Source: Holophagaceae bacterium (GTDB taxonomy: Bacteria; Acidobacteriota; Holophagae; Holophagales; Holophagaceae). Taken from it: 64,000 nt of DNA. The position numbers and the translations under genes were made by a program. Every line of letters begins with the position of its first letter. Position 1 is the first letter of the stretch. Under the pieces are notes generated by a model that worked only from the letters and a program-made list of their open reading frames with translations, was not told the DNA's origin and searched no databases. The stretch is from positions 1,569,394 to 1,633,393 of the forward strand of contig JADKKO010000004.1 in NCBI GenBank assembly GCA_016720465.1, in the 5' to 3' direction. Of the stretch, positions 1 through 34,570 are shown piece by piece.

Positions 1-1
1 C

Positions 2-484
2 ATCCCCTTCATCATGGACATGGCGGTGCTGTCCGACCAGCCGCCGAAACCCGGCGGCCACCCGGGCACCATGGGCGAGCGCGGGCTGATCTTCATGCGG
101 ATCCTCACCCTGGGCAAGCAGAAGCAGGACGTGGAGGACTACTTCGAAGGCCGCAGCCAGGACGCCGAGCCCCTGCGCCGGAGCGGCATCCACATCGACT
201 CCTCGGAAGTGCTCAAGCGCGGGGTGCTGGAAGCCAAGGGCGCCAACCCGCGGCTGCGCTTCCTGGTGCAGCGGGGCAGCCTGAGCCAAAGCGGCAGGCG
301 CTCCCAGGGCCTCATCACGATTGTCCTGCCCGCCTGCCCATCCAAGGACAAGCAGACCATGGTCATCTGGGCCGGGCCCGATCCCAGCTCCGGGGGGGCC
401 TTGGATCCGGCCCAACTATCCGGCACCGTGGCCGACGAAGGCGCCATCGCCGAGATGATGGGCCTGTTCAAGCTCTGTGAATAG
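2..484 (+). CDS. hypothetical protein, C-terminal part (gene runs off the left window edge)
   Basis: The frame is open from base 2. The translation (GERGLIFMRILTLGKQKQDVEDYFEG...) has normal protein composition, unlike the Arg/Pro/Ser-rich antisense ORF 139-555. No family recognised. Confidence 0.45.
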   Translation: MPFIMDMAVLSDQPPKPGGHPGTMGERGLIFMRILTLGKQKQDVEDYFEGRSQDAEPLRRSGIHIDSSEVLKRGVLEAKGANPRLRFLVQRGSLSQSGRRSQGLITIVLPACPSKDKQTMVIWAGPDPSSGGALDPAQLSGTVADEGAIAEMMGLFKLCE

Positions 485-493
485 TGATGAGGA

Positions 494-961
494 TCAAGGT
501 TCCCGGATCGCAGCCCGAAGGGCCGCCTCGATCTTGCGGGAGCTGCGCAGGGCAATCTCCTCCCTGAGCCTGCCCTGCCGATCGATCACGTAGGTTCTGG
601 GAAGCTGGATGAATCCGCCCAGCGGTTCGGAAAAGGAACTCAACCGGGCGGGAAGGCTCCACCGCAGCGCCAGATCCGGATGGTCCTTCATGAAGGCGAG
701 GACATCCCGCGACCCTCCGGCATCCAAGGCCACTGCCAGAACGGTGAAGGTGGAATCCTCCCTGCGTTGAAGTCTGGCTAATTCCTCCAGCGTGCCCATG
801 CGATATCCGCGCTGGGTGTTCCAGGCGTGGAGCAGCACGATCTTCCCCTTCGATTTAAACACCCCCACGAGGCGCGCGGTGCCGGCGAGACTGGGCCTGG
901 GAGCGGTGTTTCGGTTCCTCAAGGGCGGCTTCTGGCCGTTGGGATTCCGGTAGCCGCCCAC
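494..961 (-). CDS. TlpA/ResA-like thioredoxin-fold protein lacking the CxxC active site
   Basis: KGKIVLLHAW...FTVLAVALD...LPRTYVIDRQGRL follows the TlpA/redoxin layout. The position of WCxxC reads WNTQRGY and there are no Cys residues. It lies 7 nt downstream of the ParA-like gene. Confidence 0.6.
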   Translation of the reverse strand: MGGYRNPNGQKPPLRNRNTAPRPSLAGTARLVGVFKSKGKIVLLHAWNTQRGYRMGTLEELARLQRREDSTFTVLAVALDAGGSRDVLAFMKDHPDLALRWSLPARLSSFSEPLGGFIQLPRTYVIDRQGRLREEIALRSSRKIEAALRAAIREP

Positions 962-2420: not shown

Positions 2421-2670
2421 GGCTCGCCTTGAAGGATGTGGGGATTGGATGAGCCAACCATAGCGCACTTCAGGGCCGGTTTTTTGGTGCCGTTCGCCTG
2501 GATCCACAAGGAAATCGCGGGCTGTGATGCATGGCACAAGAATCCGCCGATTCGACGCGGACCGCCCATTCCAACTATCCTTCGAAGAGCGGTTATAGCC
2601 ATTTTGAAGTCCGTTCACTACCCTGGATGGAAAATCGACGACAACAATCCAGAAACTTCTAGGTGAAAAG

Positions 2671-3915
2671 ATGGACCCACTGCCCTTGGTCGCCTGCGAT
2701 ATTCCGGTTCCCGCCAAGAGCGGGCGGCAGGCGAACCTGTTCGACAAGTGCCTGCAATTCACCCGCGCCGACGAATTGAAGGCCCTGGGCAGCTATCCCT
2801 ACCACCGGGTCATCGAGAACGGGCAGAACACCGAAGTCCAGGTCAACGGCCGGAAAATGTTGATGCTCGGCTCCAATTCCTACCTGGAGCTGACCACCCA
2901 CCCGCGGATCAAGGCCAGATCGATGGAGGCCATCCAGCAGTACGGCAGCGGCTGCGCGGGGTCGCGCTTCCTGAACGGCACCCTGCCCATCCACCTGGAA
3001 CTGGAACGGCGGCTCGCGGATCTCGTGGGCAAGGAAGCCGCATTGGTCTACCCGACGGGCTTCCAGACCAACACGGGGGTCATCTCCACCCTGGTCCAGA
3101 GCGGCGAATACATCATCTCCGACAAGCTCAACCATGCCTGCATCGTGGATGGCTGCGTGCTTTCCCCCGGAAAGATGGTCAGGTACAGCCACAACGATAT
3201 GGTGGACTTGGAAGACAAGCTCTCCAAGCTTCCGAGGGATGCCGGAAAGCTCATCGTCACGGACGGCGTCTTCTCTATGGAGGGGGACATCTGCAACCTG
3301 CCGGAAATCGTGCGGTTGGCGAAGAAATACGGGGCCCAGGTGATGGTGGATGACGCCCATGGCCTGGGCGTCCTGGGACCGGGCGGGGCAGGCACGGCGG
3401 CCCATTTCGAGCTCACGGACGGAGTGGACCTGATCATGGGGACCTTTTCCAAGTCCCTCGCGGCCATCGGAGGCTTCATCGCCAGCAGCGAGCGGGTCAT
3501 CAACTACCTGATGCACACCTCCCGCCCCTTCATTTTTTCGGCTTCGGCGGCTCCCGCCAGCGTCGCGGCGGTGCTCGCGGCCCTGGATGTCATGCAGGAA
3601 GAACCCGACCGGTTGGAACGGCTGTGGCGGAACACGGCCTTCATGAAACAGGGACTGGACGACCTCGGTTTCGACACCGGCGATTCCGCAACGCCGATCA
3701 TTCCCGTTCTCATGGGCGACTTCGACCGCTGCTTCCAGGTCTGGCAGTTCATGCAGGCAGAGGGAATCTTCGTCAACCCCATCGTCCCTCCCGGGGTTCC
3801 GCCCAACCGCTGCATGATCCGGGTCTCGGTCACGGCCGGCCACTCCCTGGAACAATTGACCTGGGCGCTGGAGAAGTTCTCGGAAGCGGGCCGCCGCTTT
3901 GGCCTGACCCAGTAG
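2671..3915 (+). CDS. alpha-oxoamine synthase family PLP enzyme, serine palmitoyltransferase-like
   Basis: 414 aa. Contains GSNSYLEL, SDKLNHACIVDG, MVDDAHGLGVLG and the PLP-lysine motif GTFSKSLAAIGG. The N-terminal extension and operon context (acyltransferase, SDR, PAP2) favour Spt over BioF/Kbl. Confidence 0.8.
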   Translation: MDPLPLVACDIPVPAKSGRQANLFDKCLQFTRADELKALGSYPYHRVIENGQNTEVQVNGRKMLMLGSNSYLELTTHPRIKARSMEAIQQYGSGCAGSRFLNGTLPIHLELERRLADLVGKEAALVYPTGFQTNTGVISTLVQSGEYIISDKLNHACIVDGCVLSPGKMVRYSHNDMVDLEDKLSKLPRDAGKLIVTDGVFSMEGDICNLPEIVRLAKKYGAQVMVDDAHGLGVLGPGGAGTAAHFELTDGVDLIMGTFSKSLAAIGGFIASSERVINYLMHTSRPFIFSASAAPASVAAVLAALDVMQEEPDRLERLWRNTAFMKQGLDDLGFDTGDSATPIIPVLMGDFDRCFQVWQFMQAEGIFVNPIVPPGVPPNRCMIRVSVTAGHSLEQLTWALEKFSEAGRRFGLTQ

Positions 3916-3921
3916 CCGGGC

Positions 3922-5052
3922 ATGGAAAATAGTCTGAGCATCCATCCGGTCACCGGGGCTTCGGATGTGGAAGCATTTATCCGTTTTCCCTTCGGTCTAT
4001 ACCGAGACTACCCGCACTGGGTTCCGCCACTGCTCCTGGAGCGGCGCGAATTCCTGGACCCGGCCAAGAATCCGGTGTTCGAGTATGCCAAGATCCAGCT
4101 TTTCATGGCTTTCCGTGGATCCGAGGTGGCGGGGACCATCGCCGCGATCTGCAACAACCGCTACGGCGAATTCCATCCAGAGGACCGGAATGTCGGATTT
4201 TTCGGTCTTTTTGAATCCATCCAGGACCAGGAAGTCGCCCAGGCGCTGCTCCAGGCCGCGGCGGATTGGCTCCGGAAGGAAGGGAAGACGGTCCTGAGGG
4301 GGCCCGTGAATTTCACGACCAATGACATCGTGGGCCTCCTGGTGGATGGCTTCGAGGACGACCCGGCGATCCTCATGCCTTACAACCCTGCCTATTACGG
4401 CAGCCTCATGGAAGGCGCGGGATTAACCAAGGTCAAAGACCTGTTTGCCTTCACCCTGGCGGAGCGGGACTACAAAGGCCAGCTGGACGGAGTGGCCGCC
4501 AGGCTGGAGAAACGCGGGCATGTGAAGATCCGCCCCGTGGAGCTGGGGCGCTGGACCGAGGAACTGGAATTCGTCCGCAGCTGCTACAACGTGGCCTGGG
4601 CGAAGAACTGGGGTTTCGTTCCGTGGACCGACCGGGAATTGGCTTTCATCGCCAAGGAATTGAAACCCCTCATCGATCCGCGCCTCGCCTTCGTCGCCGA
4701 GGTGGATGGAAAGTCCGCCGGATTCTGCATTTCCGTCCCGGACGCCAACCAGGCCATCAAACTGGCTCGGGGCCGCCTGCTGCCCTTCGGGCTCCTCAAG
4801 CTCCTCTGGAAGCTGAAAGTGAGCAAATGCACTCGGCTGCGCACCATCGCCATGGGCGTGCTGCCGGAGCATCGGAGGCGGGGCATCGATGCGATCCTGG
4901 TGCACCACCTCGTCCGCCAATCCGTGGCCTACGGCTGCCCCGTGTCGGAGATGGGCTGGATCCTGGAGGACAATGAGCCGATGCTCAGCGCCCTGCGCCA
5001 GATCGGCGCGCAGAAAACGAAGACCTACCGCGTCTACGATCGCGCACTATAA
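3922..5052 (+). CDS. GNAT-superfamily N-acyltransferase-like protein (candidate bacterial ceramide synthase)
   Basis: 376 aa, starting 6 nt after the AOS stop. The C-terminal lobe has a GNAT-like acyl-CoA segment (IAMGVLPEHRRRGIDAILVHHLV). The subfamily call is an inference from context. Confidence 0.65.
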   Translation: MENSLSIHPVTGASDVEAFIRFPFGLYRDYPHWVPPLLLERREFLDPAKNPVFEYAKIQLFMAFRGSEVAGTIAAICNNRYGEFHPEDRNVGFFGLFESIQDQEVAQALLQAAADWLRKEGKTVLRGPVNFTTNDIVGLLVDGFEDDPAILMPYNPAYYGSLMEGAGLTKVKDLFAFTLAERDYKGQLDGVAARLEKRGHVKIRPVELGRWTEELEFVRSCYNVAWAKNWGFVPWTDRELAFIAKELKPLIDPRLAFVAEVDGKSAGFCISVPDANQAIKLARGRLLPFGLLKLLWKLKVSKCTRLRTIAMGVLPEHRRRGIDAILVHHLVRQSVAYGCPVSEMGWILEDNEPMLSALRQIGAQKTKTYRVYDRAL

Positions 5053-5055
5053 CCC

Positions 5056-6033
5056 ATGCTCGCGCTCGTCACCGGAGGCCAGGGATTCATCGGATCGCAC
5101 CTCTGCGAGAGGCTGGTCCAGGCAGGCCACCGGGTCCGCGTGCTCGCCCGCCCATCCAGCGATCTCACCCACCTGCAAGGGCTTCCGGTGGAGGTGGTCC
5201 GTGGCGATCTGGCCGGTGAAGAGCCCCTCGCCCCGGCCGTCGAGGGCGTGGACTGGGTCTTCCATCTCGCCGGCGCGCTCAAGGGATTCCGCCAGGAGGA
5301 TCTGCTCCGAGTGAACCGGGGCGGGACGGAGCGTCTACTCGATGCCTGCCAGCTCCATGCGCCCGGCCTCTCCCGCTTTGTCCTGGTGTCCAGCCTGGCG
5401 GCCGCAGGGCCTAGCCCGGGAGGATTGGCCGCTGCGGCCGAGGAGGCCAGTCCCCGGCCTTTGACCTGGTACGGCCAAAGCAAGCTGGAGGCGGAAACGG
5501 TGGTCCAAACTTCCGGCCTTCCCTTCACCATCCTCCGGCCCCCGATCGTCTTCGGGCCCCGGGACCGGGATGTCCTCAGCTATTTCCAGATCGCCCAGAG
5601 GGGTCTGCTCCCGGTGCCGGGCCGCCGGGACCGGTACTATTCCCTGGTGTTCGCGCCGGACCTGGCTGGAGGGATTCTGCGCGCTGCCGAATCACCAGCG
5701 GCCGCCTCGGAGATCTTCAACCTCACGGGCGCCGAAGTGGTGGCCTGGTCGGAGCTTGGCCATAGGATTTCCACCGCGCTCGGTGTCCGGGGCCGGGTCC
5801 TCCGCCTTCCGGAATTCGCCATCCAAGCTTCCGGGAGGATGGCGGATCTCGCGGCGCGCCTGCGGGGGGCTCCCCAGATCTTCAGCTCCCAGAAGGTGAT
5901 CGAGATGCTCGCCCCGGCCTGGGTCGCGGATCCCGGGAAGGCGCAGCGGATGCTCGGATGGAGCGCGCCGACCCCGCTCGACGAAGGCCTGGCCCTGACC
6001 GTGCGTTGGTACCGCTCCCATGGCTGGCTCTGA
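5056..6033 (+). CDS. extended SDR, NAD-dependent epimerase/dehydratase family (candidate ceramide/3-keto reductase)
   Basis: N-terminal Rossmann motif VTGGQGFIGSHL and catalytic YGQSK. 325 aa, starting 3 nt after the upstream stop. Confidence 0.85.
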   Translation: MLALVTGGQGFIGSHLCERLVQAGHRVRVLARPSSDLTHLQGLPVEVVRGDLAGEEPLAPAVEGVDWVFHLAGALKGFRQEDLLRVNRGGTERLLDACQLHAPGLSRFVLVSSLAAAGPSPGGLAAAAEEASPRPLTWYGQSKLEAETVVQTSGLPFTILRPPIVFGPRDRDVLSYFQIAQRGLLPVPGRRDRYYSLVFAPDLAGGILRAAESPAAASEIFNLTGAEVVAWSELGHRISTALGVRGRVLRLPEFAIQASGRMADLAARLRGAPQIFSSQKVIEMLAPAWVADPGKAQRMLGWSAPTPLDEGLALTVRWYRSHGWL

Positions 6034-6931
6034 CATGCGGCCACGGCCATTTGGGCTGTCCGGTCCGCTGGGCTCCTGGCGTCCCCTCGACCTGGCGCTG
6101 GCCGCCTACCTGGTTCCCGCATCCCTGGTCCTGCTCGCGGGACTTGCCCGGGGAGTTCCTGGCTGTGGGAAACAACTCATCGCCAATGCCGCGGTGGCGC
6201 TGGTTGCATGGGTGGCCGTTCGCTGGAGCCGGGACACCAGGGCCGTGCTCCCGACCCTGCTCCGTTTCTGCTACGTGCCGCTCCTGTACCTGGTCTTCTA
6301 CCGGCAGATCGAAATCATCTGGCCGGTGCTCCGGGCGGCCCCGATGGACGCTGGACTGGCGCGCCTGGAAGGGGCGCTGTTCAACGCCCAGCCTTCGCTC
6401 GCCTTCCGGGCCGCCCTCCCTTCCAGGTGGCTTTCGGAGCTCTTCTGCTTCGCCTACTTCGCCTACTACTTTTTCACGCCGGTGGTATTCCTCTCCGTCT
6501 TGTTCCGGCGGGGCTACCTTGCGGCTGAACGCATCGCGCTGGCTGCTTCCGCATGCTTCTTCACCTGCTATGCGATCTTCTGGCTCTTTCCGACCGTCGG
6601 GCCCCATTTCTGGTTTCCGCCTCACCAGGGGCCGCAGCTCTACGATGGCTACGTCTTCAACCATCTGTTGTTCTATCTGACCTCCAACGGTGAAATCCGG
6701 GCCGGCGCCTTTCCTTCTTCGCACATCGCCGTGGCCCTGCTCCTGACCCTATCCGTCCGGCGGGAGCTGCCGGGGCTCTTCGTGCCTCTCGCCGCCGTTA
6801 CCGCGCTGATGCTTCCGGCCGTAGTCTACCTGCGGGCCCACTACCTGGTGGACGTCCCCGCGGGCATCCTGATGGGACTCCTCGCCTTCGCTATTTCCAA
6901 CCGGTTTATTCGTCCTGCCGCGGCGCAATGA
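6020..6931 (+). CDS. PAP2-superfamily membrane protein, Aur1/Ipt1/SMS-like
   Basis: Polytopic membrane protein. The C-terminal motifs FPSSHIA and RAHYLVDVPAG correspond to the LPT C2 (S-x-H) and C3 (H-Y-x-x-D-V) motifs. Overlaps the SDR gene by 14 nt; an alternative Met lies at 6035. Confidence 0.75.
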   Translation: MAGSDMRPRPFGLSGPLGSWRPLDLALAAYLVPASLVLLAGLARGVPGCGKQLIANAAVALVAWVAVRWSRDTRAVLPTLLRFCYVPLLYLVFYRQIEIIWPVLRAAPMDAGLARLEGALFNAQPSLAFRAALPSRWLSELFCFAYFAYYFFTPVVFLSVLFRRGYLAAERIALAASACFFTCYAIFWLFPTVGPHFWFPPHQGPQLYDGYVFNHLLFYLTSNGEIRAGAFPSSHIAVALLLTLSVRRELPGLFVPLAAVTALMLPAVVYLRAHYLVDVPAGILMGLLAFAISNRFIRPAAAQ

Positions 6932-7475
6932 GGCTTCGCTGCACGCGCTCAAGATTGCCCTGCAACTGCACGAGATTCCAGGCGATCCACATGGCGTAGC
7001 CGAGCCATACCCACAGCAGGCGTGGATCGCAGGGCGTGCGCTTGAGCACTTCCGTGCCGATGTCGAGCCTCAACCCTTGAAGGAACCAGACCACGCCGCC
7101 GAACACGATAAGCAGGTGGCCCCAGCGGACCCAATAGGGGCGCAGGCCTTCCTTGGCCTTCCAGCGCAGCAGCAGCCAGCGCAGGAAGAGTTCCGATTTG
7201 GCCTCGGCGAAATGGAGGGCGATGAGCTGGTCCACCAGGGGCGCGTAGCGATGGACCTTCAGTTCGGCGATCTCGTCCTCGCCGTTCAATTTACGGAGAA
7301 AGGCCGAGCGGATCTTGCCCACGCATTCCTCCCATGGGGCCTCTTCGCGGCGCACCGCCAAGTGCAGCCGCACCAGCCCGACCCACAGCAGGGCCTGGGC
7401 CAGCAGCACCCCCCAAAGCGCCATGCCCTGCCAGCCGCTGTTCCGCACCACATCCAAGAAACGCGAGAGATCCAT
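6906..7475 (-). CDS. hypothetical membrane protein
   Basis: Several hydrophobic helices (GMALWGVLLAQALLWVGLV, LLIVFGGVVWFLQGL, LLWVWLGYAMWIAWNLV). The start is placed at Met18 of ORF 6906-7526 to leave a divergent promoter gap; 7526 is also possible. Confidence 0.5.
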   Translation of the reverse strand: MDLSRFLDVVRNSGWQGMALWGVLLAQALLWVGLVRLHLAVRREEAPWEECVGKIRSAFLRKLNGEDEIAELKVHRYAPLVDQLIALHFAEAKSELFLRWLLLRWKAKEGLRPYWVRWGHLLIVFGGVVWFLQGLRLDIGTEVLKRTPCDPRLLWVWLGYAMWIAWNLVQLQGNLERVQRSLIAPRQDE

Positions 7476-7579
7476 GGGAAGAGTCTGACCGGAATCAACG
7501 CTAAATACTGCCCGCGAATGGGTCATTTTGAAGGTTCGAGGCGGTGCTGTTCCTCTCCTTCCGGCATCATGGAATCACC

Positions 7580-9838
7580 ATGGCCTACCGTCGCGCTTCG
7601 ATCCTGGTTCTCGTTTCTTCGGGCTTGCTGTCCCAGGCTCCGGATGCCTGGGAAGCGCTGCTTTCGCGCCAGCGGGTCCGGCCGGACCGCCAGGGGGCCT
7701 ACCAGTTCATTTCCCGCGGCCAGGAATTTGAAGGGCCCTGGGCCAATGAACTGCCAGTGGCCAGGCTGAGGGCTTCGGGCGAGCTCAGTTTCCTCCAATT
7801 GGACGAAGGCCAATCCAAGGGGCTGTGGTTGCGGCAGCGCTGGCCGGCTGGGGAAAGCCACTGGGCGGTCCTGGGTCCCGCCTTTGAGATCGTGGCCTCG
7901 GGGACCTCGCAGCCCACGGCCGAATCCCTGCTCCAGGTCCTGCGGGACTCAGGCTGGAAACCCCAGTCGGAGCGGCGGGAGGCTTTCCTTCGGGAACATC
8001 CCGACAACGGGGACGCGTGGCAGGATCTGTTCACGGAAGCCCTGCACGTGGCCGCGGGTCCCGGGGATCAGGAACCCGAGCCTGCCGATAAGGAAGCGGA
8101 GCCCAAGGCTCCGGATGCCGACCAGGACCAGGCCCGGTTTGGCGAGGTGGACCGGGCCCTCCGGGGCCTGCTGGAAGTCGATGGCTGGGAGGAGAATTTC
8201 GAGTTCCGGGTGGGTCTGGATGAAGAAGCCAAGGGCTTTCCCCAGTCCTCCCTGCTGCAGCCGATCCTCACCCGGCTGCGCCGCGGAGTGGAAGATGCCC
8301 TGAAAGCCCGGCCCGGCGATGGGCGGCTCTGGAGCGCCTGGGCCGAGTTGGCGGGCTCCGGCGATTCACCGGAAGCCCTGTTGGCCTCGCTGGAACCCGC
8401 CCCCCGCCAGCCCTGGCCCCCGCTTGTGGCCGCGGAACCGTTGGCGCTGGCCCACCGGCGCAGCAAGGATTGGGTGGGGCTGGCCCGCCTGGCGGAAGCC
8501 GCCATGGCCCAGGCGCTGCAGCCTTCCGTGGTCCAGGCCAGCGGTGGCGGTTCCGGCGCATCCCACAGCGTGCACCGGGCCGCGGCGGCCGGAGCCTGGG
8601 GCCCGCATCGCATAGAAGCGCTGCTCCACCTTGGCCGCCGTCAGGATGCCCTGGCCGTGCTGGAGGAAAGCCGCGCCCTGAGCGGCCGGATGTGGCGCTG
8701 GGCGCAACTGCCTTTCAGCAAGATCAACCTGCTTGGGGGCGACCTGGCGAAGCTTTACCAGGAAAGCGATCAGCGGGCCTTCATGGATGTGATCAAGCAA
8801 CCGCCTCTGAAGGAGCTGCCGATCCCCGCGGCGCCGCCGCCCTTGCGATTGGCCACCCAAGGCAAACCGGAATGGAAAGAGGAGTTCAAAGCCCTCCAGG
8901 GGAATCCCGCCTTCGATGCCTGGAAACCCGGCCGCGATCTCGTGTGGGATCAGTTGAATGAAACCGAAGCCAGGCTGTTCAACGACCGGGGGGAAGGGGG
9001 CGCGGCCAGGTGGGTGCTGCTGCGGGGCCAGGAGCTGCTCTCCAGCGGCGGTGGACTGCCCACGCCTGAAGCCCTGTCCGACTTGTTGCGCGCCCAGGGC
9101 GGATTGCCTTATCTGGCGGAACTGGATGCCTTCATCAAGGCGCATCCCTACCACGCGGAGGCCCGAGAGCTGCGCATTGCCGAGGTGACCGCCCGGCCCC
9201 AGACCCCGGGCCTGGAGAAGCGGTTGTTGGCGGACCTCGCCCGGACCAAGGGACCCGCGCTCCTTCCCAAGGATTGGAAGCTTGACGCGGAACGCTGGGC
9301 CGAAGCCGCGGGGAAATTGCTCCCGCAGCTTGAAGCCGATACCCGGCGATGGCCCGCCACGAGAGGCCCGCTCCATGCCTGGGTCACGTGGGCCGCCCTA
9401 TCGCCCTCCCGTCCGAAACCGGGTTCGTTTTTGCGGACCCTGTCCATCTGGAAAAACAACGTGGAGGAACGGGATCCGTTCCGCACGGGGCCGGTGGATG
9501 TGGACACGACCAGCCTGGTTTCTGAATTCCTGTCCTCGCGCAAGGACTGGGAGGGCCTTGCGGATTGGTGCCAGGCTTTGTGGGACCTGGGGTGGCGCGA
9601 GGCGCTTCCGCGCCATTTGAAACCTCCGCCAGGCATGAAGGAAACCTCGCAGCGGATGATGCGCTGGTTCATGGACGCGCCGTTCCGCCGCATTCTCCAG
9701 CCCTGGGCCGCCGCTCTGCGCAACCTGGGCCGCACAGAAGAATTGCGGCAGCTCGGGCTGGAACTTGATCTGCTTCAGCCGGGCCTGGCCAAGCGGTTGG
9801 AGCAGCCGGCCCAGGAGGCGCGGCCAGGCCGGCGCTAG
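7580..9838 (+). CDS. large secreted hypothetical protein with internal two-fold duplication
   Basis: Met13 of the ORF gives a signal peptide (MAYRRASILVLVSSGLLSQA). Both halves contain W-x-V-L...SG...PT-x-E-x-L...L-R...G and S-[RS]-KDW-x-GLA segments. No family recognised. Confidence 0.7.
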   Translation: MAYRRASILVLVSSGLLSQAPDAWEALLSRQRVRPDRQGAYQFISRGQEFEGPWANELPVARLRASGELSFLQLDEGQSKGLWLRQRWPAGESHWAVLGPAFEIVASGTSQPTAESLLQVLRDSGWKPQSERREAFLREHPDNGDAWQDLFTEALHVAAGPGDQEPEPADKEAEPKAPDADQDQARFGEVDRALRGLLEVDGWEENFEFRVGLDEEAKGFPQSSLLQPILTRLRRGVEDALKARPGDGRLWSAWAELAGSGDSPEALLASLEPAPRQPWPPLVAAEPLALAHRRSKDWVGLARLAEAAMAQALQPSVVQASGGGSGASHSVHRAAAAGAWGPHRIEALLHLGRRQDALAVLEESRALSGRMWRWAQLPFSKINLLGGDLAKLYQESDQRAFMDVIKQPPLKELPIPAAPPPLRLATQGKPEWKEEFKALQGNPAFDAWKPGRDLVWDQLNETEARLFNDRGEGGAARWVLLRGQELLSSGGGLPTPEALSDLLRAQGGLPYLAELDAFIKAHPYHAEARELRIAEVTARPQTPGLEKRLLADLARTKGPALLPKDWKLDAERWAEAAGKLLPQLEADTRRWPATRGPLHAWVTWAALSPSRPKPGSFLRTLSIWKNNVEERDPFRTGPVDVDTTSLVSEFLSSRKDWEGLADWCQALWDLGWREALPRHLKPPPGMKETSQRMMRWFMDAPFRRILQPWAAALRNLGRTEELRQLGLELDLLQPGLAKRLEQPAQEARPGRR

Positions 9839-11616: not shown

Positions 11617-12657
11617 CTACCCTAGCAACGAGACGACCTGCTTCAGCCGGGCTTCTTTTTCTTCGGCCTGGCCGCGCAACTTGGCTACGGCCGCCTCGGG
11701 AGCCTTGGTGACGAAGCTTTCATCGGCCAGGCGGGACCGCAGGGGCTCCAGTTCTTTCAAGAGCTTGGCGCGCTCGGTTTCAAGCTTCGTCTTTTCCGCC
11801 ACGGGATCCTTGAGGCCTGCGAGTTCAAGGGCGATGGTGCCTCCGCTCACCACGCCGACGGCGCGGGTCGTGGAGGCCAGATCGCCGCTCATAAATTCGA
11901 TGCTTTCCAATCTGGCGATGGTTTTGAGCGCCTCGCTGAAGGGCCGCAATTCCATGATCGTGCAGGCCGCCGCCACGCGCTTGGCCGGATCCACGCCGTT
12001 CTCCGCCTTCAGGCGCAGGAACGCGCTCAGGATGTCCTGGAAACGCGGTATCAAGGCTGCGTTTCCACCTTGCCTGGAAAGCAGGGGATGATCCTTGGGC
12101 CACGACCGCTCTGCCAGCAGTCTGGATTCGCCGGGAAGCAAGCGATCCGCCAGGACGGCCTCATGGATTTCCTCCGTGACGAAGGGCACCATGGGGTGCA
12201 GCGCCCGGAGCAGGATGTCGAGGAAGTGCAGGATGGCGGCCTTCTGGCCGGCCGTGCCGTTCATCAGATTGACCTTGGCCAGCTCGATGTAGGTGGCGCA
12301 GAAATCATCCCAGACCAGGTGGTAGAGAAGGTCCGCGGCTTCGTGGAAACGGAATTCCTCCAGGGCCGCCGTGACTTTGTGCAGATCCTCGCGCAGGCGT
12401 CCGATCATCCAATATTCTGCCTCGCCCAGCTCCGGTTCCACTTCAAGCGTCACATCATCCGTCAGGTTGATCTGCACGAAGCGGGCGGCGTTCCAGAGCT
12501 TGTTGCAGAAATTGCGGCTCGACTCCAGGCGGTTGCGGGATAGGGCGATGTCCGTGCCCGGCGCCGACATCGAGATGAGCGTGAACCGCAGCGCGTCTGT
12601 GCCGAACTCGTCCATGACCTCGAGCGGATCGATCACATTGCCCTTGGACTTCGACAT
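11617..12657 (-). CDS. valS: valine--tRNA ligase, C-terminal fragment of a frameshifted gene
   Basis: Begins at the KMSKS loop (MSKSKGNVIDP) and ends in the coiled-coil tail. The frame stays open upstream through KVYFNSLVRDASGAK. Confidence 0.9.
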   Translation of the reverse strand: MSKSKGNVIDPLEVMDEFGTDALRFTLISMSAPGTDIALSRNRLESSRNFCNKLWNAARFVQINLTDDVTLEVEPELGEAEYWMIGRLREDLHKVTAALEEFRFHEAADLLYHLVWDDFCATYIELAKVNLMNGTAGQKAAILHFLDILLRALHPMVPFVTEEIHEAVLADRLLPGESRLLAERSWPKDHPLLSRQGGNAALIPRFQDILSAFLRLKAENGVDPAKRVAAACTIMELRPFSEALKTIARLESIEFMSGDLASTTRAVGVVSGGTIALELAGLKDPVAEKTKLETERAKLLKELEPLRSRLADESFVTKAPEAAVAKLRGQAEEKEARLKQVVSLLG

Positions 12658-12685
12658 CTTCGCGCCGGACGCATCGCGAACCAGG

Positions 12686-14233
12686 CTATTGAAGTAGACC
12701 TTTCTTGAAAGGGACTTGGTCAGTCCAAGTGAGGCCGCTCATCACCATGCGCGCCACCCAGAAGAAGATGATGTCGTAGCTGGTGCACATTAGGTCGTTG
12801 GGATAGTAACGCTTGAGATCTTCGGTCTCGTCGGGCCAGCCCAGGATGCTGAAGGGCCAGAGCGCCGAGGAAAACCAGGTGTCCAGCGTGTCGGGATCCT
12901 GCTCCAGGTTCGTGGAACCGCAGTTGGAGCATGAAGCGGGCGCTTCCAGTTCCACGTGCAGATGGCCGCAGGCCGCGCAGGTCCACGCGGGAATTCGATG
13001 CCCCCACACGAGCTGGCGCGAAATGCACCAGTCCGTGATATTGCTGAGCCAGTGTTCCCAGACCGCCACGTGATGTTCGGGCGTGAAGGTGATCTTGCCC
13101 TCGCGGACCACCTGCAGCGCCTGCTGCGCGGCCTCCTTCACGTCCATGAACCACTGTTCGGATACGAGGGGCTCGAGCACGGCGCCGGTGCGGTCGGACA
13201 CCGCCACTTGCGAAATGTGGGTCTGGATTTTGGCCAGGAGGCCCTGGGCCTCCAGTTCCGCCACCACTTTCTTGCGGCACTCAAAACGGTCCAGGCCCGC
13301 GTAGGCGGCGCCTGCGGCCGGGGTCATCTTGGCGTCGAAGCCGATGACTGCGATGGAAGGCAGTTGCAGCCGTAGTCCCGCTGCATGGTCGTTGGGGTCG
13401 TGGGCCGGTGTCAGTTTCACGCACCCGGTGCCGAAATCACGTTCCACGAAGGCGTCGGCGACCACCGGAATCTCTCGGGTAGTGAGGGGCAGTCGCACCA
13501 TCTTTCCGACGATGTGCGTGTACCGCTCGTCATCGGGATGCACCGCCACGGCGGTGTCGCCGAGCATGGTTTCGGGCCGGGTCGTGGCGACGGTCAGGTG
13601 GCCGCTGCCGTCGGCGAAAGGGTAGTTGATGTGCCAGAGATGTCCGTTGCGTTCGACATGCTTCACTTCGAGATCGCTGAGGGCCGTCTGCGAAACCGGA
13701 TCCCACTGGATCATGCGCGGGCCGCGGTAGATGCGGCCCTGGCGGAAGGCTTCCACGAACACCTTGCGCACGGCGCGGTTCAGGTCCGGGTCCATGGTGA
13801 AGCGCTTGCGGGTCCAGTCCAGACTGGCGCCAAGGCGCCGCAGCTGGTTCTCGATATCGGCCTGGTTCTGTTCCTTCCAGGACCAGATGCGCTCCAGGAA
13901 CTTTTCGCGGCCCAGGGCGTGGCGGTCGGTGCCCTCGGCCTTCAATTGGCGTTCCACGATGATCTGCGTGGCGATGCCCGCGTGGTCCACGCCGGGAATC
14001 CAGGCCACATCGAAGCCTTGGGCCCGCTTGAGGCGCGCCATGACGTCCGGCAGCGAGTAGGCCAGCGCGTGGCCCATGTGCAGGTTGCCGGTGATGTTGG
14101 GCGGCGGCAGGGACATGGAGAAGGGCGTCCTGCCGCTGGCGGGCTTGGCCTCGAAGGTCCTCGCGGCCTCCCAGGTCGCGTACCAGCGCTCCTGCGCTGT
14201 CTTGAAATCGAAGGCCTTGTCCATTTCACGCAT
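12686..14233 (-). CDS. valS: valine--tRNA ligase, N-terminal fragment of a frameshifted gene
   Basis: Class I HIGH motif (PPPNITGNLHMGHAL) and the ValRS editing/CP1 region. Ends ...DQVPFKKGLLQ*, whereas the other frame continues KVYFNSLVRD...KMSKS. Confidence 0.9.
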   Translation of the reverse strand: MREMDKAFDFKTAQERWYATWEAARTFEAKPASGRTPFSMSLPPPNITGNLHMGHALAYSLPDVMARLKRAQGFDVAWIPGVDHAGIATQIIVERQLKAEGTDRHALGREKFLERIWSWKEQNQADIENQLRRLGASLDWTRKRFTMDPDLNRAVRKVFVEAFRQGRIYRGPRMIQWDPVSQTALSDLEVKHVERNGHLWHINYPFADGSGHLTVATTRPETMLGDTAVAVHPDDERYTHIVGKMVRLPLTTREIPVVADAFVERDFGTGCVKLTPAHDPNDHAAGLRLQLPSIAVIGFDAKMTPAAGAAYAGLDRFECRKKVVAELEAQGLLAKIQTHISQVAVSDRTGAVLEPLVSEQWFMDVKEAAQQALQVVREGKITFTPEHHVAVWEHWLSNITDWCISRQLVWGHRIPAWTCAACGHLHVELEAPASCSNCGSTNLEQDPDTLDTWFSSALWPFSILGWPDETEDLKRYYPNDLMCTSYDIIFFWVARMVMSGLTWTDQVPFKKGLLQ

Positions 14234-26833: not shown

Positions 26834-26909
26834 GGTCCCGTAGCTCAGTGGATAGAGCAATCGCCTCCTAAGCGATAGGTCGTGCGTTCAAGTCGCGCCG
26901 GGACCACCA
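26834..26909 (+). tRNA. tRNA-Arg (anticodon CCT)
   Basis: Hand-folded cloverleaf. Acceptor GGTCCCG/CGGGACC, D-arm GCTC-AGTGGATA-GAGC, anticodon stem ATCGC/GCGAT with loop CT-CCT-AA, T-arm GTGCG-TTCAAGT-CGCGC, discriminator A and encoded CCA. Confidence 0.9.
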
Positions 26910-33265: not shown

Positions 33266-34570
33266 ATGATGCCTTCAACCGACGCCGCCTACATTGCACT
33301 CGTGAGCCTGGCCGCCGCGGGGGCGAGGGCTTTGCGGCGCGGACTGCCCCTGGGCTGGCGGTTGCGGCTGGAAGCCTCGCCCCCCGAAAACCTCCAGCCG
33401 GGGTGGGTCTGGCTCCACGCGGTGAGCGTGGGCGAATTGATCCTTGCGAAAGGCCTTGCGGAGAAATTGCTGGAGGCCCGGCACCGGGTCCACCTCACCA
33501 CGGGGACCGCGGCCGGCCTGGCCCTGCTGGGCGAGCGCATCCCGGCCTGGGACCAGGGCAGGGGCTTGCTGAGCGGCGGCGCCTTTCCAGTGGACGATCC
33601 GGAGGGTTTGCGGCCTTTCCTGCGAACTCCGCCCGGCGCGTTCATCGCGCTGGAAACGGAACTCTGGCCGAATTTGCTGCGCCAACTGGAGGGTCTTGGA
33701 GTCCCCCGGATCATCGTGAATGGGCGGCTGACGGCACGCAGCAGCGGTCAAAGCGGCTTGGGCGGACTGGGAAGGCCCTGGCTCAAGAGGGCCGCGGAAA
33801 GGCTCAGCCTGGTGGCGGCCAGGGATGCCGAATCTGCGGACGCCTTCCGTTCCCTGGGCGCCCCCAAGGTCGCCCTCGGCGGCAACCTGAAAGCCGATCT
33901 GCCTTCACCGGCGCCCCTGGCAGCCCGTTGGGAGGGCCTTCGGAGCGCCTGGCAGGAAAGTCCGGTCCTCGTCGCCGGAAGCACTTTGGAGGGCGAAGAA
34001 GCCCTGGTGCTGGAAGCGTGGATGCGCTTGCGTTCAGATCACCCTTCCTTGCGCCTGATCCTCGCGCCGCGCCAACCCAAACGCTTTCAGCCGGTCGCTG
34101 AGTTGTTGAGGGAGCAGGGCCATGGCTTCCTCCGTGCCTCAGGGACCTGGCCCGAGGGCGTGGACCCGTGGCGATCGGTGGGAATTCTCTTGTTGGACAC
34201 CCTCGGGGAGTTGCCGGCCGTTTATGGGGAGGGCACGGTCGCCCTGGTGGGGGGCGGCTGGCGGGGGAAGGGGGGGCACAACCCCCTTGAGCCGGTCCGA
34301 TGGGGAATCCCCACTCTGATCGGTCCGGGGTTCCACAATTTCGAGGATTTGGTCGGACCCCTCCGGGCCGCTCACCGGCTGAATGTGGTCGAGGAACCGG
34401 GCTTGGAAGCCGCCATCCAGTCCGCCCTCGAAACAGCGCCTCTGAGGGGACCCGGCTGGGGTGGGACGGCCGACCTTCCGGAGGGCCTTGCGGGCGCTCT
34501 GGAGACTGTGTGGAATCTGCTGCGGCCCTATCTGCCCGCAGCGATGGGGCCAGGCATCCTTGAAAAATAA
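33266..34570 (+). CDS. waaA: 3-deoxy-D-manno-octulosonic acid (Kdo) transferase
   Basis: WLHAVSVGE motif and a C-terminal GT-B glycosyltransferase region (GGSL-like GGGWRGKGGHNPLEP). Confidence 0.85.
   Translation: MMPSTDAAYIALVSLAAAGARALRRGLPLGWRLRLEASPPENLQPGWVWLHAVSVGELILAKGLAEKLLEARHRVHLTTGTAAGLALLGERIPAWDQGRGLLSGGAFPVDDPEGLRPFLRTPPGAFIALETELWPNLLRQLEGLGVPRIIVNGRLTARSSGQSGLGGLGRPWLKRAAERLSLVAARDAESADAFRSLGAPKVALGGNLKADLPSPAPLAARWEGLRSAWQESPVLVAGSTLEGEEALVLEAWMRLRSDHPSLRLILAPRQPKRFQPVAELLREQGHGFLRASGTWPEGVDPWRSVGILLLDTLGELPAVYGEGTVALVGGGWRGKGGHNPLEPVRWGIPTLIGPGFHNFEDLVGPLRAAHRLNVVEEPGLEAAIQSALETAPLRGPGWGGTADLPEGLAGALETVWNLLRPYLPAAMGPGILEK

What the first reader, a model, noticed from the sequence alone, without database searches (positions are those of the whole stretch)
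2671..6931. Tight four-gene operon resembling the bacterial ceramide pathway (Spt, GNAT-type ceramide synthase, SDR reductase) plus a PAP2 enzyme
Seen in sequence: four same-strand genes separated by 6 nt, 3 nt and a 14-nt overlap. They encode an alpha-oxoamine synthase with the PLP-lysine motif GTFSKS, a 376-aa GNAT-like acyltransferase, an extended SDR (TGGQGFIGS, YGQSK) and a polytopic PAP2 protein. Established knowledge: in Caulobacter and other Gram-negative bacteria ceramide is made by serine palmitoyltransferase, then a GNAT-superfamily ceramide synthase (bCerS), then an NAD-dependent epimerase/dehydratase-type reductase (CerR). Inference: this operon encodes that route in an Acidobacteria-like genome, with a fourth gene that could add a polar head group. 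No ACP or acyl-ACP synthetase gene is present. The alternative is a different N-acyl amino-lipid or sulfonolipid, since capnine-type CapB/CapC enzymes belong to the same two families.
Basis: partly seen in the sequence, partly recalled or inferred. Interest (0 to 1): 0.75.

Follow-up and report, generated by a model that had tools for sequence, protein, structure and literature searches.

The report
Acidobacterial ceramide operon with head-group transferase
A Holophagaceae (Acidobacteriota) genome carries a tight four-gene operon that very probably makes a ceramide and then attaches a phosphate-linked head group to it; this extends a recently discovered bacterial sphingolipid pathway to a common soil group, but nobody has measured the lipid.

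Summary
Four co-directional ORFs lie at 2671-3915, 3922-5052, 5056-6033 and 6020-6931, with gaps of 6 and 3 nt and a 14-nt overlap, and all cited motifs are present. The contig is from a Holophagaceae MAG.

- **Gene 1** is a serine palmitoyltransferase (Spt) of the Sphingobacterium/CFB type. It is 52.6% identical to the crystallised S. multivorum Spt, keeps the catalytic residues, and is clearly nearer to Spt than to Kbl, BioF or cysteate acyltransferase.
- **Gene 2** belongs to the YghO/CC_1154 family, which is the bacterial ceramide synthase bCerS. It is 39% identical over its full length to the Sphingomonas member that sits in that genus's Spt locus.
- **Gene 3** matches the CerR orthologues of the same loci.
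- **Gene 4** is the added value: a PAP2_3 protein whose closest solved relative, by sequence profile and by fold, is yeast Aur1 (inositol phosphorylceramide synthase). The His-His-Asp triad is conserved and the phosphatase C1 motif is absent.

Spt-GNAT-SDR recurs in many phyla. The full four-gene block recurs in Holophagae, Bryobacterales, Gemmatimonadota and Eisenbacteria.

The head group and the lipid itself are untested. I rate this a new member of a known kind, of moderate interest.

The parts
2671..3915 (+). spt: serine palmitoyltransferase of the Sphingobacterium/CFB type (alpha-oxoamine synthase). It is predicted to use acyl-CoA, because no dedicated ACP is present.
   Evidence: NCBIfam NF047600 SerpalmtaseCFB gives 562.6 bits (cut-off 640), against 395-431 bits for BioF/Kbl models. 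The best PDB matches are the S. multivorum Spt entries 8guh/3a2b at 450 bits, against 322 for Kbl/BioF and 240 for cysteate acyltransferase. H155, D227, H230, K261 and R384 align with S. paucimobilis Spt H159, D231, H234, K265 and R390. In an NJ tree it groups with S. multivorum Spt, away from Kbl and BioF.
3922..5052 (+). bcerS-like gene: a tandem-GNAT N-acyltransferase of the YghO/CC_1154 family, predicted to N-acylate the Spt product
   Evidence: Pfam GNAT hits are weak. The protein is 39% identical at E=1e-83 over its full length to the N-acetyltransferase in the Sphingomonas parapaucimobilis Spt locus. It is 35.7% identical to E. coli YghO. Orthology of yghO to CC_1154 comes from PMC9386255. 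The AF2 model has pLDDT 84 and a tandem-GNAT fold. Natural AOS-GNAT fusion proteins exist.
5056..6033 (+). cerR-like gene: an extended SDR (3-beta-HSD/epimerase type), predicted 3-keto reductase of the oxidised ceramide or long-chain base
   Evidence: Pfam Epimerase and 3Beta_HSD match. It is 33% identical at E=6e-38 over its full length to the Sphingomonas CerR-position gene, and 26% identical at E=1e-27 to the E. coli one. All three show much the same ranking of NCBIfam hits, with HpnA first and OleD/SdmB among the next few. TGGQGFIG and YGQSK are present. It is the only ORF in the window hit by CerR orthologues, although two other extended SDRs lie in the window.
6020..6931 (+). Aur1-like PAP2_3 membrane protein with about 8 TM helices: predicted ceramide phospho-head-group transferase, head group unknown
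   Evidence: PF14378 PAP2_3 gives 69.4 bits against a cut-off of 27. The family profile's best PDB hit is yeast Aur1 (E=3e-4), aligning H235, H274 and D278 with Aur1 H255, H294 and D298. That triad is essential in Aur1 (PMC13133130). The AF2 model has pLDDT 85. The top two Foldseek hits are Aur1, with TM up to 0.59. There is no KxxxxxxRP C1 motif. The start overlaps the SDR stop by 14 nt, and this overlap is conserved in relatives.
2464..2670 (+). Upstream intergenic region, the presumed promoter region of the operon
   Evidence: This is inferred from position only. No sigma-70-like promoter was found and no Rfam element. The neighbouring upstream gene, UPF0102-like, lies on the opposite strand.

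Best explanation
The operon is a self-contained cassette for making a phosphosphingolipid.

1. Spt condenses L-serine with a long-chain acyl-CoA to give 3-ketodihydrosphingosine.
2. The tandem-GNAT bCerS-family enzyme N-acylates it.
3. The CerR-family SDR reduces the 3-keto group to give dihydroceramide. The gene order matches the bacterial reaction order proposed for Caulobacter.
4. The Aur1-like PAP2 membrane enzyme uses its His-His-Asp triad to take a phospho-alcohol head group from a glycerophospholipid (PE, PG or PI), releasing diacylglycerol. It transfers that group to the C1 hydroxyl of the ceramide, probably on the periplasmic face of the inner membrane.

What is shown: family assignments, catalytic residues, fold, and conserved gene linkage. 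What is inferred: substrates, order of steps, head group, topology, and that the lipid is actually made.
For: **Spt.**
- The best model and structure matches are Spt.
- The catalytic residues are conserved.
- The tree places it with known Spt.

**bCerS.**
- It is a full-length homologue of the Sphingomonas and E. coli YghO orthologues of CC_1154.
- The Sphingomonas locus holds the crystallised Spt, at 907 bits to 2jg2.
- AOS-GNAT fusions occur in three independent assemblies.

**CerR.**

**PAP2.**
- It matches PF14378.
- Aur1 is the top hit by profile and by fold, with the triad aligned.
- The C1 motif is absent.
- The bacterial precedent is BT_1522, an AUR1 homologue that is the PI-dihydroceramide synthase of Bacteroides (PMC9246714).

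**Linkage.**
- Of 86 loci, 54 have Spt beside the GNAT and 22 have all four genes. These 22 come from Holophagae, Bryobacterales, Gemmatimonadota and Eisenbacteria.
- The absence of AcpR and AasR fits an acyl-CoA-using CFB-type Spt.
Against: - No lipid data exist for this organism, and I found no report of sphingolipids in Holophagae.
- The AOS is below NCBI's Spt equivalog cut-off, so amino-acid specificity is not proven.
- The Caulobacter bCerS and CerR sequences were not compared directly.
- Of the 86 GNAT-family loci, 28 have no Spt nearby, for example in Anaerolineae. Roseomonas plasmid records, which were not among those 86, show the GNAT beside an NTP-transferase gene instead. The family may therefore not be restricted to ceramide synthesis.
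- The PAP2-Aur1 match is weak in absolute terms (23.5 bits, 18-19% identity, Foldseek E about 2e-3) and is confined by sequence to the catalytic C-terminal third.
- A PAP2 protein could instead be a lipid phosphatase.
- No inositol-synthesis gene was seen among the ORFs scanned; about 33 of 48 were scanned.
Confidence: 0.72

Rival explanations
1. Genes 1-3 make ceramide as above, but the PAP2 protein is a lipid phosphate phosphatase. Candidate substrates are ceramide-1-phosphate, long-chain-base phosphate, phosphatidate or lipid A. On this reading it is not a head-group transferase, and the end product is free ceramide or a lipid modified by enzymes encoded elsewhere.
For: PAP2 is primarily a phosphatase superfamily. 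The general PAP2 model also matches weakly. B. subtilis PgpB and LpxE are the next structural and profile hits. No head-group-precursor gene lies in the operon.
Against: Aur1 outranks every phosphatase by both profile and fold. The phosphatase C1 motif KxxxxxxRP is absent. The PAP2_C (sphingomyelin-synthase C-terminal) model gives a weak hit. No ceramide kinase that would create a phosphatase substrate is in the operon.
Confidence: 0.17
2. The operon makes a related but non-sphingolipid N-acyl amino lipid. One option is a capnine-type sulfonolipid from cysteate. Another is a 1-deoxy or glycine-derived base from a different amino acid.
For: CapB/SulA and CapC belong to the same two families as Spt and CerR. 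The AOS is below the Spt equivalog cut-off. 1-Deoxyceramides are reported from anaerobic bacteria (PMC11334938).
Against: The AOS scores 450 bits to Spt but only 237-240 bits to the cysteate acyltransferase structures. It is 52.6% identical to a biochemically proven Spt. No cysteate synthase gene is linked. An Aur1-like transferase needs the C1 hydroxyl that only serine provides.
Confidence: 0.07
3. The four genes are adjacent but functionally unrelated housekeeping genes: a BioF/Kbl-type enzyme, a generic acetyltransferase, a sugar epimerase and a PAP2 phosphatase.
For: NCBI annotates them only generically. bioB lies about 8 kb downstream of the operon.
Against: Linkage is conserved across distant phyla with different flanking genes. 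The gene overlaps are conserved. AOS-GNAT fusions exist. The AOS is clearly of Spt type.
Confidence: 0.02

Closest known systems
Bacterial ceramide pathway Spt / bCerS (CC_1154, CCNA_01212; E. coli YghO) / CerR (CC_1164, CCNA_01222) of Caulobacter crescentus and other Proteobacteria
   Same: The same three enzyme families are present. The GNAT and SDR are full-length homologues of the Sphingomonas and E. coli orthologues. The genes are clustered.
   Different: There is no dedicated ACP (AcpR), acyl-ACP synthetase (AasR) or LptF2/LptG2. The Spt is of the CFB type rather than the proteobacterial type, with a window+S. multivorum clade in 99/100 bootstraps. The three genes form one tight, colinear operon instead of being spread over about 12 genes. 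The head-group genes differ: Caulobacter uses other gene families for ceramide phosphoglycerate (PMC11324152).
Sphingobacterium multivorum / Bacteroidota serine palmitoyltransferase (PDB 3a2b, 8guh; NCBIfam NF047600)
   Same: It is 52.6% identical. The catalytic residues match, including Val at the position of S. paucimobilis R378.
   Different: It scores below the equivalog cut-off, 562.6 against 640 bits. In Bacteroidota the spt, bcerS and cerR genes are reported to be dispersed (PMC11334938). Here they are contiguous.
Aur1 (fungal IPC synthase) and its Bacteroides homologue BT_1522 (PI-dihydroceramide synthase)
   Same: It shares the Pfam family PAP2_3 and the H-H-D triad in the C2/C3 motifs. 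Aur1 is the best structural match. The predicted chemistry is head-group transfer to ceramide C1-OH.
   Different: Sequence identity is only 18-19%, and the sequence match is limited to the catalytic region. There is no Kei1 partner. BT_1522 sits in an inositol-lipid cluster with MIPS and PIP synthase, whereas this gene sits with the ceramide genes and no inositol genes were seen. The donor lipid is unknown. BT_1522 itself was not compared because no sequence was available.
Sulfonolipid/capnine enzymes CapB/SulA and CapC
   Same: They belong to the same two superfamilies (AOS and SDR).
   Different: The AOS is much closer to Spt, 450 against 237-240 bits. There is no cysteate synthase.

Membership tests
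Serine palmitoyltransferase (bacterial Spt, alpha-oxoamine synthase) | PLP-binding lysine and the catalytic His/Asp/His/Arg residues of Spt | tested here: met
   K261, H155, D227, H230 and R384 align with S. paucimobilis K265, H159, D231, H234 and R390. R378 is Val here, as in the proven S. multivorum Spt.
Serine palmitoyltransferase (bacterial Spt, alpha-oxoamine synthase) | Closer to characterised Spt than to Kbl, BioF, HemA or cysteate acyltransferase | tested here: met
   NF047600 gives 562.6 bits, against TIGR01825 431.5, Kbl 401.5, BioF 394.9 and ALAS 251. In the PDB, Spt gives 450, Kbl/BioF 322 and cysteate acyltransferase 240. In the NJ tree the Spt-like clade excludes Kbl and BioF in 92/100 bootstraps. 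The only outgroups were E. coli Kbl and BioF.
Serine palmitoyltransferase (bacterial Spt, alpha-oxoamine synthase) | Passes NCBI's curated equivalog cut-off for Spt | tested here: not met
   It scores 562.6 bits against a cut-off of 640 for NF047600. The other two Spt models are also below cut-off. It is therefore best called 'Spt-like', in the sense of clade B of PMC11334938.
Serine palmitoyltransferase (bacterial Spt, alpha-oxoamine synthase) | Condenses L-serine with long-chain acyl thioester | not testable with these tools
   This needs an enzyme assay.
Bacterial ceramide synthase bCerS (CC_1154/CCNA_01212, YghO family) | Full-length sequence homology to orthologues of CC_1154 | tested here: met
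   It is 39% identical at E=1e-83 to the Sphingomonas parapaucimobilis protein and 35.7% identical at 99% coverage to E. coli YghO. phmmer gives 253 and 240 bits. Orthology of yghO and of S. paucimobilis DRN02_007910 to CC_1154 is stated in PMC9386255.
Bacterial ceramide synthase bCerS (CC_1154/CCNA_01212, YghO family) | Direct similarity to the experimentally characterised Caulobacter protein | not tested
   The sequence could not be obtained.
Bacterial ceramide synthase bCerS (CC_1154/CCNA_01212, YghO family) | GNAT-superfamily acyltransferase fold | tested here: met
   Pfam Acetyltransf_1 and Acetyltransf_7 match. The AF2 model is a tandem GNAT, with Foldseek E down to 7e-13 against tandem-GNAT structures.
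Bacterial ceramide synthase bCerS (CC_1154/CCNA_01212, YghO family) | Genomic association with spt | tested here: met
   It is adjacent here. Of 86 family loci, 54 have Spt within 6 kb. AOS-GNAT fusion proteins exist. The association is not universal: 28 loci lack a nearby Spt.
Ceramide reductase CerR (CC_1164/CCNA_01222) | Homology to orthologues of CC_1164 over both the Rossmann and substrate domains | tested here: met
   It is 33% identical at E=6e-38 to the Sphingomonas protein (residues 1-325 against 1-298) and 26% identical at E=1e-27 to the E. coli protein. It is the only ORF in the window hit by these queries. The ranking of NCBIfam hits is much the same, with HpnA first.
Ceramide reductase CerR (CC_1164/CCNA_01222) | SDR cofactor and catalytic motifs | tested here: met
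   TGGQGFIG lies at residues 6-13, YGQSK at 139-143, and SS at 112-113.
Ceramide reductase CerR (CC_1164/CCNA_01222) | Periplasmic location reported for Caulobacter CerR (PMC11087976) | tested here: inconclusive
   The Rossmann motif starts at residue 6, which leaves no room for a signal peptide. The Sphingomonas and E. coli orthologues look the same, so the sequence does not settle location.
Aur1/Ipt1-type phosphosphingolipid synthases (Pfam PF14378 PAP2_3, LPT superfamily) | Matches PF14378 above the gathering score | tested here: met
   It scores 69.4 bits against a cut-off of 27, over residues 113-292. That PF14378 corresponds to the Aur1/Ipt1 InterPro entry is from my own knowledge.
Aur1/Ipt1-type phosphosphingolipid synthases (Pfam PF14378 PAP2_3, LPT superfamily) | His-His-Asp catalytic triad (C2 His; C3 HxxxD) | tested here: met
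   H235, H274 and D278 align with Aur1 H255, H294 and D298. The two histidines are invariant and the aspartate is at least 90% conserved in 40 homologues. The triad is essential in Aur1 (PMC13133130).
Aur1/Ipt1-type phosphosphingolipid synthases (Pfam PF14378 PAP2_3, LPT superfamily) | Aur1-like fold | tested here: met
   The top two Foldseek PDB hits are 9vj4_A and 9ivc_A (Aur1), with TMq 0.49-0.59 over 277-300 columns. They rank ahead of PgpB, SMSr and LpxE. The E-values are modest (2e-3).
Aur1/Ipt1-type phosphosphingolipid synthases (Pfam PF14378 PAP2_3, LPT superfamily) | Transfers phosphoinositol from PI to ceramide | not testable with these tools
   The donor lipid is unknown. No inositol-phosphate synthase or PI synthase domain was found among the window ORFs scanned; about 15 ORFs were not scanned.
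Capnine/sulfonolipid pathway (CapB/SulA, CapC) | AOS closest to cysteate-C-fatty acyltransferase | tested here: not met
   It scores 240 and 237 bits to 28eh and 7u7h, against 450 bits to Spt.

The most novel reading that the evidence does not exclude
The operon-linked PAP2_3 protein may define a bacterial family of ceramide phosphotransferases that uses an ordinary membrane phospholipid (PE or PG) rather than PI as donor. That would assign a gene to ceramide-phosphoethanolamine or ceramide-phosphoglycerol synthesis in bacteria. It would also mean that abundant soil phyla (Acidobacteriota including Holophagae and Bryobacterales, Gemmatimonadota, Eisenbacteria) build phosphosphingolipids from one portable, ACP-independent four-gene cassette.
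Probability: 0.35. Interest if true: 0.6.

Novelty: new member of a known kind. Interest (0 to 1): 0.42.

Why it matters
Bacterial sphingolipid synthesis was worked out only in 2021-2022, and mainly in Proteobacteria and Bacteroidota. Metagenomic surveys then predicted producers in dozens of phyla, with no experimental follow-up.

This locus is a clean, minimal case: four translationally coupled genes with no ACP system, in a lineage that has cultured relatives carrying the same block (Mesoterricola silvestris and M. sediminis). It is an easy test bed for three things:

- whether Acidobacteriota make sphingolipids;
- the disputed order of acylation and reduction;
- which head group a bacterial Aur1-like enzyme attaches when no inositol genes are linked.

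It would also give a compact cassette for heterologous production of ceramide or phosphoceramide.

Tried and rejected
- **Fetching the reference sequences failed.** The defining paper (Stankeviciute 2022) is not held. The link was made instead through a tblastn of the plasmid collection, which by luck contains E. coli and Sphingomonas chromosomal fragments with the sphingolipid locus.
- **No dedicated models or structures for genes 2 and 4.** NCBIfam has no model matching the GNAT or the PAP2, and none for the E. coli or Sphingomonas bCerS orthologues either. A single-sequence PDB search of the GNAT and the PAP2 gave nothing useful; only the PAP2 family profile reached Aur1.
- **No regulatory signals.** The promoter scan found none, and terminator-like sites did not exceed the shuffled expectation. 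Rfam found no riboswitch or other element near the operon.
- **Literature searches came up empty.** Searches for sphingolipids in Holophagae, Acidobacteriota or Gemmatimonadota found no report. The Black Sea paper's held supplements do not list these taxa.
- **Rejected readings.** BioF/Kbl identity is rejected. The capnine pathway is rejected. The downstream ORFs 6906-7526 and 7544-9838 are not counted as operon members, because they have no Pfam hit, one is on the other strand, and they are not conserved next to the block in relatives.

Full report
**Observation.** They are separated by 6 nt and 3 nt, and the last pair overlaps by 14 nt. The cited motifs are present: GTFSKS, TGGQGFIG, YGQSK, and PSSH/HYLVD in the PAP2 protein. 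GC3 is 0.79-0.86 in all four, as in the other genes of the window.

NCBI calls the PAP2 gene 15 nt shorter. The longer N-terminus is nevertheless conserved in 40 homologues, and the same 14-nt overlap is called in Mesoterricola silvestris and in another MAG. The contig belongs to a Holophagaceae MAG, since the GNAT is 100% identical to a protein on a 1.8-Mb contig of that MAG. The flanking genes are unrelated or on the other strand: a ParA-like gene and a UPF0102-like gene upstream, and two ORFs without Pfam hits downstream. The unit is therefore the four genes.

**Gene 1, the alpha-oxoamine synthase.**
- Its best NCBIfam match is the CFB-type serine palmitoyltransferase model NF047600 at 562.6 bits. 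BioF/Kbl-family models give 395-431 bits and ALAS gives 251 bits. The score stays below that model's equivalog cut-off of 640.
- Against the PDB, the top hits are the Sphingobacterium multivorum Spt structures at 450 bits. Kbl/BioF enzymes follow at 322, proteobacterial Spt at about 290-300, and the cysteate acyltransferases of sulfonolipid synthesis at 237-240.
- It is 52.6% identical to S. multivorum Spt.
- It keeps the PLP lysine (K261) and the residues matching S. paucimobilis H159, D231, H234 and R390. The one difference, Val in place of R378, is shared with the proven S. multivorum enzyme.
- In a neighbour-joining tree, the GNAT-linked AOS genes plus known Spts excluded E. coli Kbl and BioF in 92 of 100 bootstraps. 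The window protein grouped with S. multivorum Spt apart from proteobacterial Spt in 99 of 100. The outgroup sampling was small.

**Gene 2, the GNAT.** Pfam sees only weak GNAT signal and NCBIfam has no specific model. The family is large, with 8331 representatives at E<1e-3.

The decisive link came from a tblastn against the plasmid collection. The protein is 35.7% identical over 99% of its length to E. coli YghO. It is 38.7% identical to an 'N-acetyltransferase' of Sphingomonas parapaucimobilis. The two records carry these loci:
- E. coli: yghO, fatty-acyl-AMP ligase, epimerase-family SDR, ACP, AOS, lptG, lptF.
- Sphingomonas: NAD(P)H-binding protein, ACP, AOS, an ATP-binding protein, lptF, lptG, desaturase, N-acetyltransferase.

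The AOS of the Sphingomonas locus is essentially the crystallised S. paucimobilis Spt, at 907 bits to 2jg2. Padilla-Gomez et al. (PMC9386255) list yghO (ECD_02850) and the S. paucimobilis gene DRN02_007910 as the orthologues of Caulobacter CC_1154. They list the adjacent epimerase genes as orthologues of CC_1164. CC_1154 and CC_1164 are cerS/bCerS and cerR (PMC11324152).

Pairwise, the window GNAT aligns end to end with the Sphingomonas protein at 39% identity and E=1e-83. The AF2 model (pLDDT 84) is a tandem GNAT. Fused AOS-GNAT proteins of 780 aa occur in three independent sources, which is a Rosetta-stone argument that the two enzymes work together.

**Gene 3, the SDR.**
- It aligns over its full length with the Sphingomonas CerR-position protein (33% identity, E=6e-38) and with the E. 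coli one (26% identity, E=1e-27).
- The CerR orthologues hit no other ORF in the window, although two other extended SDRs are present.
- All three proteins show much the same ranking of NCBIfam hits: HpnA first, with the lipid 3-oxo reductases OleD and SdmB among the next few, all below cut-off.
- No signal peptide is possible, because the Rossmann motif starts at residue 6. The orthologues look the same, so this says nothing about the periplasmic location reported for Caulobacter CerR (PMC11087976).

**Gene 4, the PAP2 protein.**
- It matches PF14378 (PAP2_3) at 69.4 bits, and only weakly matches the general PAP2 and PAP2_C models.
- A profile of 40 homologues finds yeast Aur1, the catalytic subunit of inositol phosphorylceramide synthase, as its best PDB match (E=3e-4). 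The match aligns 'GAFPSSH' and 'LRAHYLVDVPAG' with Aur1 'GAFPSLH' and 'LTHHYFVDLMAG'. This places H235, H274 and D278 on Aur1 H255, H294 and D298.
- The cryo-EM study of Aur1 shows that this triad is essential. It also describes a two-step transfer through a phospho-histidine intermediate (PMC13133130).
- The AF2 model (pLDDT 85) has Aur1 structures as its top two Foldseek hits (TMq 0.49-0.59). They rank ahead of PgpB, SMSr and LpxE.
- The phosphatase C1 motif KxxxxxxRP is absent.
- A bacterial precedent exists: BT_1522, an AUR1 homologue, is the phosphoinositol-dihydroceramide synthase of Bacteroides thetaiotaomicron (PMC9246714).
- From the model's helices and the positive-inside rule, I infer an N-in, C-in topology of about eight helices with the triad facing the periplasm. 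This is inference, not a computed result.

**Conservation.**
- The same four genes, in the same order, occur in the cultured Mesoterricola silvestris, in a MAG labelled Pseudomonadota and in an Acidobacteria MAG.
- I examined 86 loci with a GNAT homologue. They comprise 80 from a truncated scan of GTDB species genomes plus six others.
- Of these, 54 have the Spt-like gene within 6 kb. Twenty-two have all four genes; they come from Holophagae, Bryobacterales and other Acidobacteriota, Gemmatimonadota and Eisenbacteria.
- Twenty-eight have the GNAT alone, some on short contigs and some, such as Anaerolineae, with full flanks.
- Archangium gephyra and a Myxococcales MAG, from a group known to make sphingolipids, have Spt-GNAT and Spt-GNAT-SDR respectively.
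- None of the non-proteobacterial loci has the AcpR/AasR pair, and the window has none either. This fits an acyl-CoA-dependent CFB-type Spt.

**Mechanism proposed.**
1. Spt condenses serine with an acyl-CoA to give 3-ketodihydrosphingosine.
2. The bCerS-family GNAT N-acylates it.
3. The CerR-family SDR reduces the 3-keto group.
4. The Aur1-like enzyme takes a phospho-alcohol from a glycerophospholipid, releasing diacylglycerol, and passes it to the ceramide C1-OH.

The gene order is colinear with the acylate-then-reduce order argued for Caulobacter (PMC11087976), which is suggestive only. Family membership, catalytic residues, fold and linkage are shown. Substrates, step order, head group and actual lipid production are inferred. 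I put about 0.85 on ceramide synthesis and about 0.6-0.65 on the PAP2 being a head-group transferase.

**Rivals.**
- *PAP2 as a lipid phosphatase (about 0.17).* Aur1 outranks all phosphatases and the C1 motif is missing, but the Aur1 match is weak in absolute terms.
- *A sulfonolipid or other amino-lipid (about 0.07).* The AOS is much nearer to Spt than to cysteate acyltransferase, and an Aur1-type enzyme needs the serine-derived hydroxyl.
- *Chance adjacency (about 0.02).* This is contradicted by the conservation across phyla and by the fusions.

**Comparison with what is known, and novelty.**
- The three-enzyme bacterial ceramide route is established.
- Homology surveys already predict it in 9 phyla, and Spt-like genes in about 40 (PMC11334938).
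- An Aur1 homologue acting on ceramide is known in Bacteroides.
- What this locus adds is a member in Holophagae, for which I found no sphingolipid report.
- It also adds a compact, ACP-free architecture in which the Aur1-like gene is translationally coupled to the ceramide genes rather than to inositol genes.
- I file it as a new member of a known kind. Interest is moderate, mainly because cultured Mesoterricola strains make it directly testable.

Noticed in passing
window 11617-14233 (- strand), break near 12657-12700: The valyl-tRNA synthetase gene is split into two ORFs in different frames. The reading frame shifts just upstream of the KMSKS motif, around 'PFKK|VYFNSLVRD'. This looks like a single-base indel. 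ValRS is essential, so an assembly or sequencing error in the MAG is more likely than a true pseudogene.
   Followed up: partly
proteins P0138 (780 aa) and P0207 (648 aa): These are natural fusions of an Spt-like AOS domain to a bCerS-family GNAT domain. The 780-aa form occurs in three independent sources, one on an 819-kb contig. P0121 (784 aa) appears to be a tandem duplication of the GNAT protein.
   Followed up: partly
L085 (NZ_MG591698.1) and L086 (NZ_CP155753.1): Both records are labelled plasmids, yet they carry core chromosomal genes. The E. coli record has glcDEFGBA, pitB and the yghO sphingolipid-type cluster. The Sphingomonas record has obgE, proB and spt. They are probably chromosome fragments mis-assigned as plasmids.
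   Followed up: no
loci L007, L009, L017, L020, L022, L025 and others; Roseomonas plasmid hits H2-H13: Many members of the YghO/bCerS GNAT family have no Spt within 6-10 kb, for example in Anaerolineae and Ignavibacteria. In Roseomonas the gene sits beside an NTP-transferase gene. Either the ceramide genes are dispersed there, as in Bacteroidota, or the family has other acyl acceptors.
   Followed up: no
window 6906-7526 (-) and 7544-9838 (+): Directly downstream of the operon lie a 206-aa predicted membrane protein and a 764-aa protein. Neither has any Pfam match, and neither is conserved next to the block in Mesoterricola or the other MAG.
   Followed up: partly
window 33266-34570 (+): A Kdo transferase (WaaA-type) gene is present. 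The organism therefore has LPS and an outer membrane, the compartment where bacterial sphingolipids usually reside.
   Followed up: no
L081 (Archangium gephyra) 4535-5485 (-): A weak PAP2 homologue (43 bits) lies about 3 kb upstream of the Spt-GNAT pair on the opposite strand. It may be a myxobacterial counterpart of the head-group gene.
   Followed up: no
L001 (Mesoterricola silvestris) 1-915 (-): A second acyltransferase gene (PF13480 Acetyltransf_6) and an MFS transporter gene lie a few kb upstream of the four-gene block in M. silvestris. They are not present upstream in the window.
   Followed up: no
window 26834-26909 (+): This tRNA-Arg(CCT) is the only RNA gene detected in the window.
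   Followed up: yes
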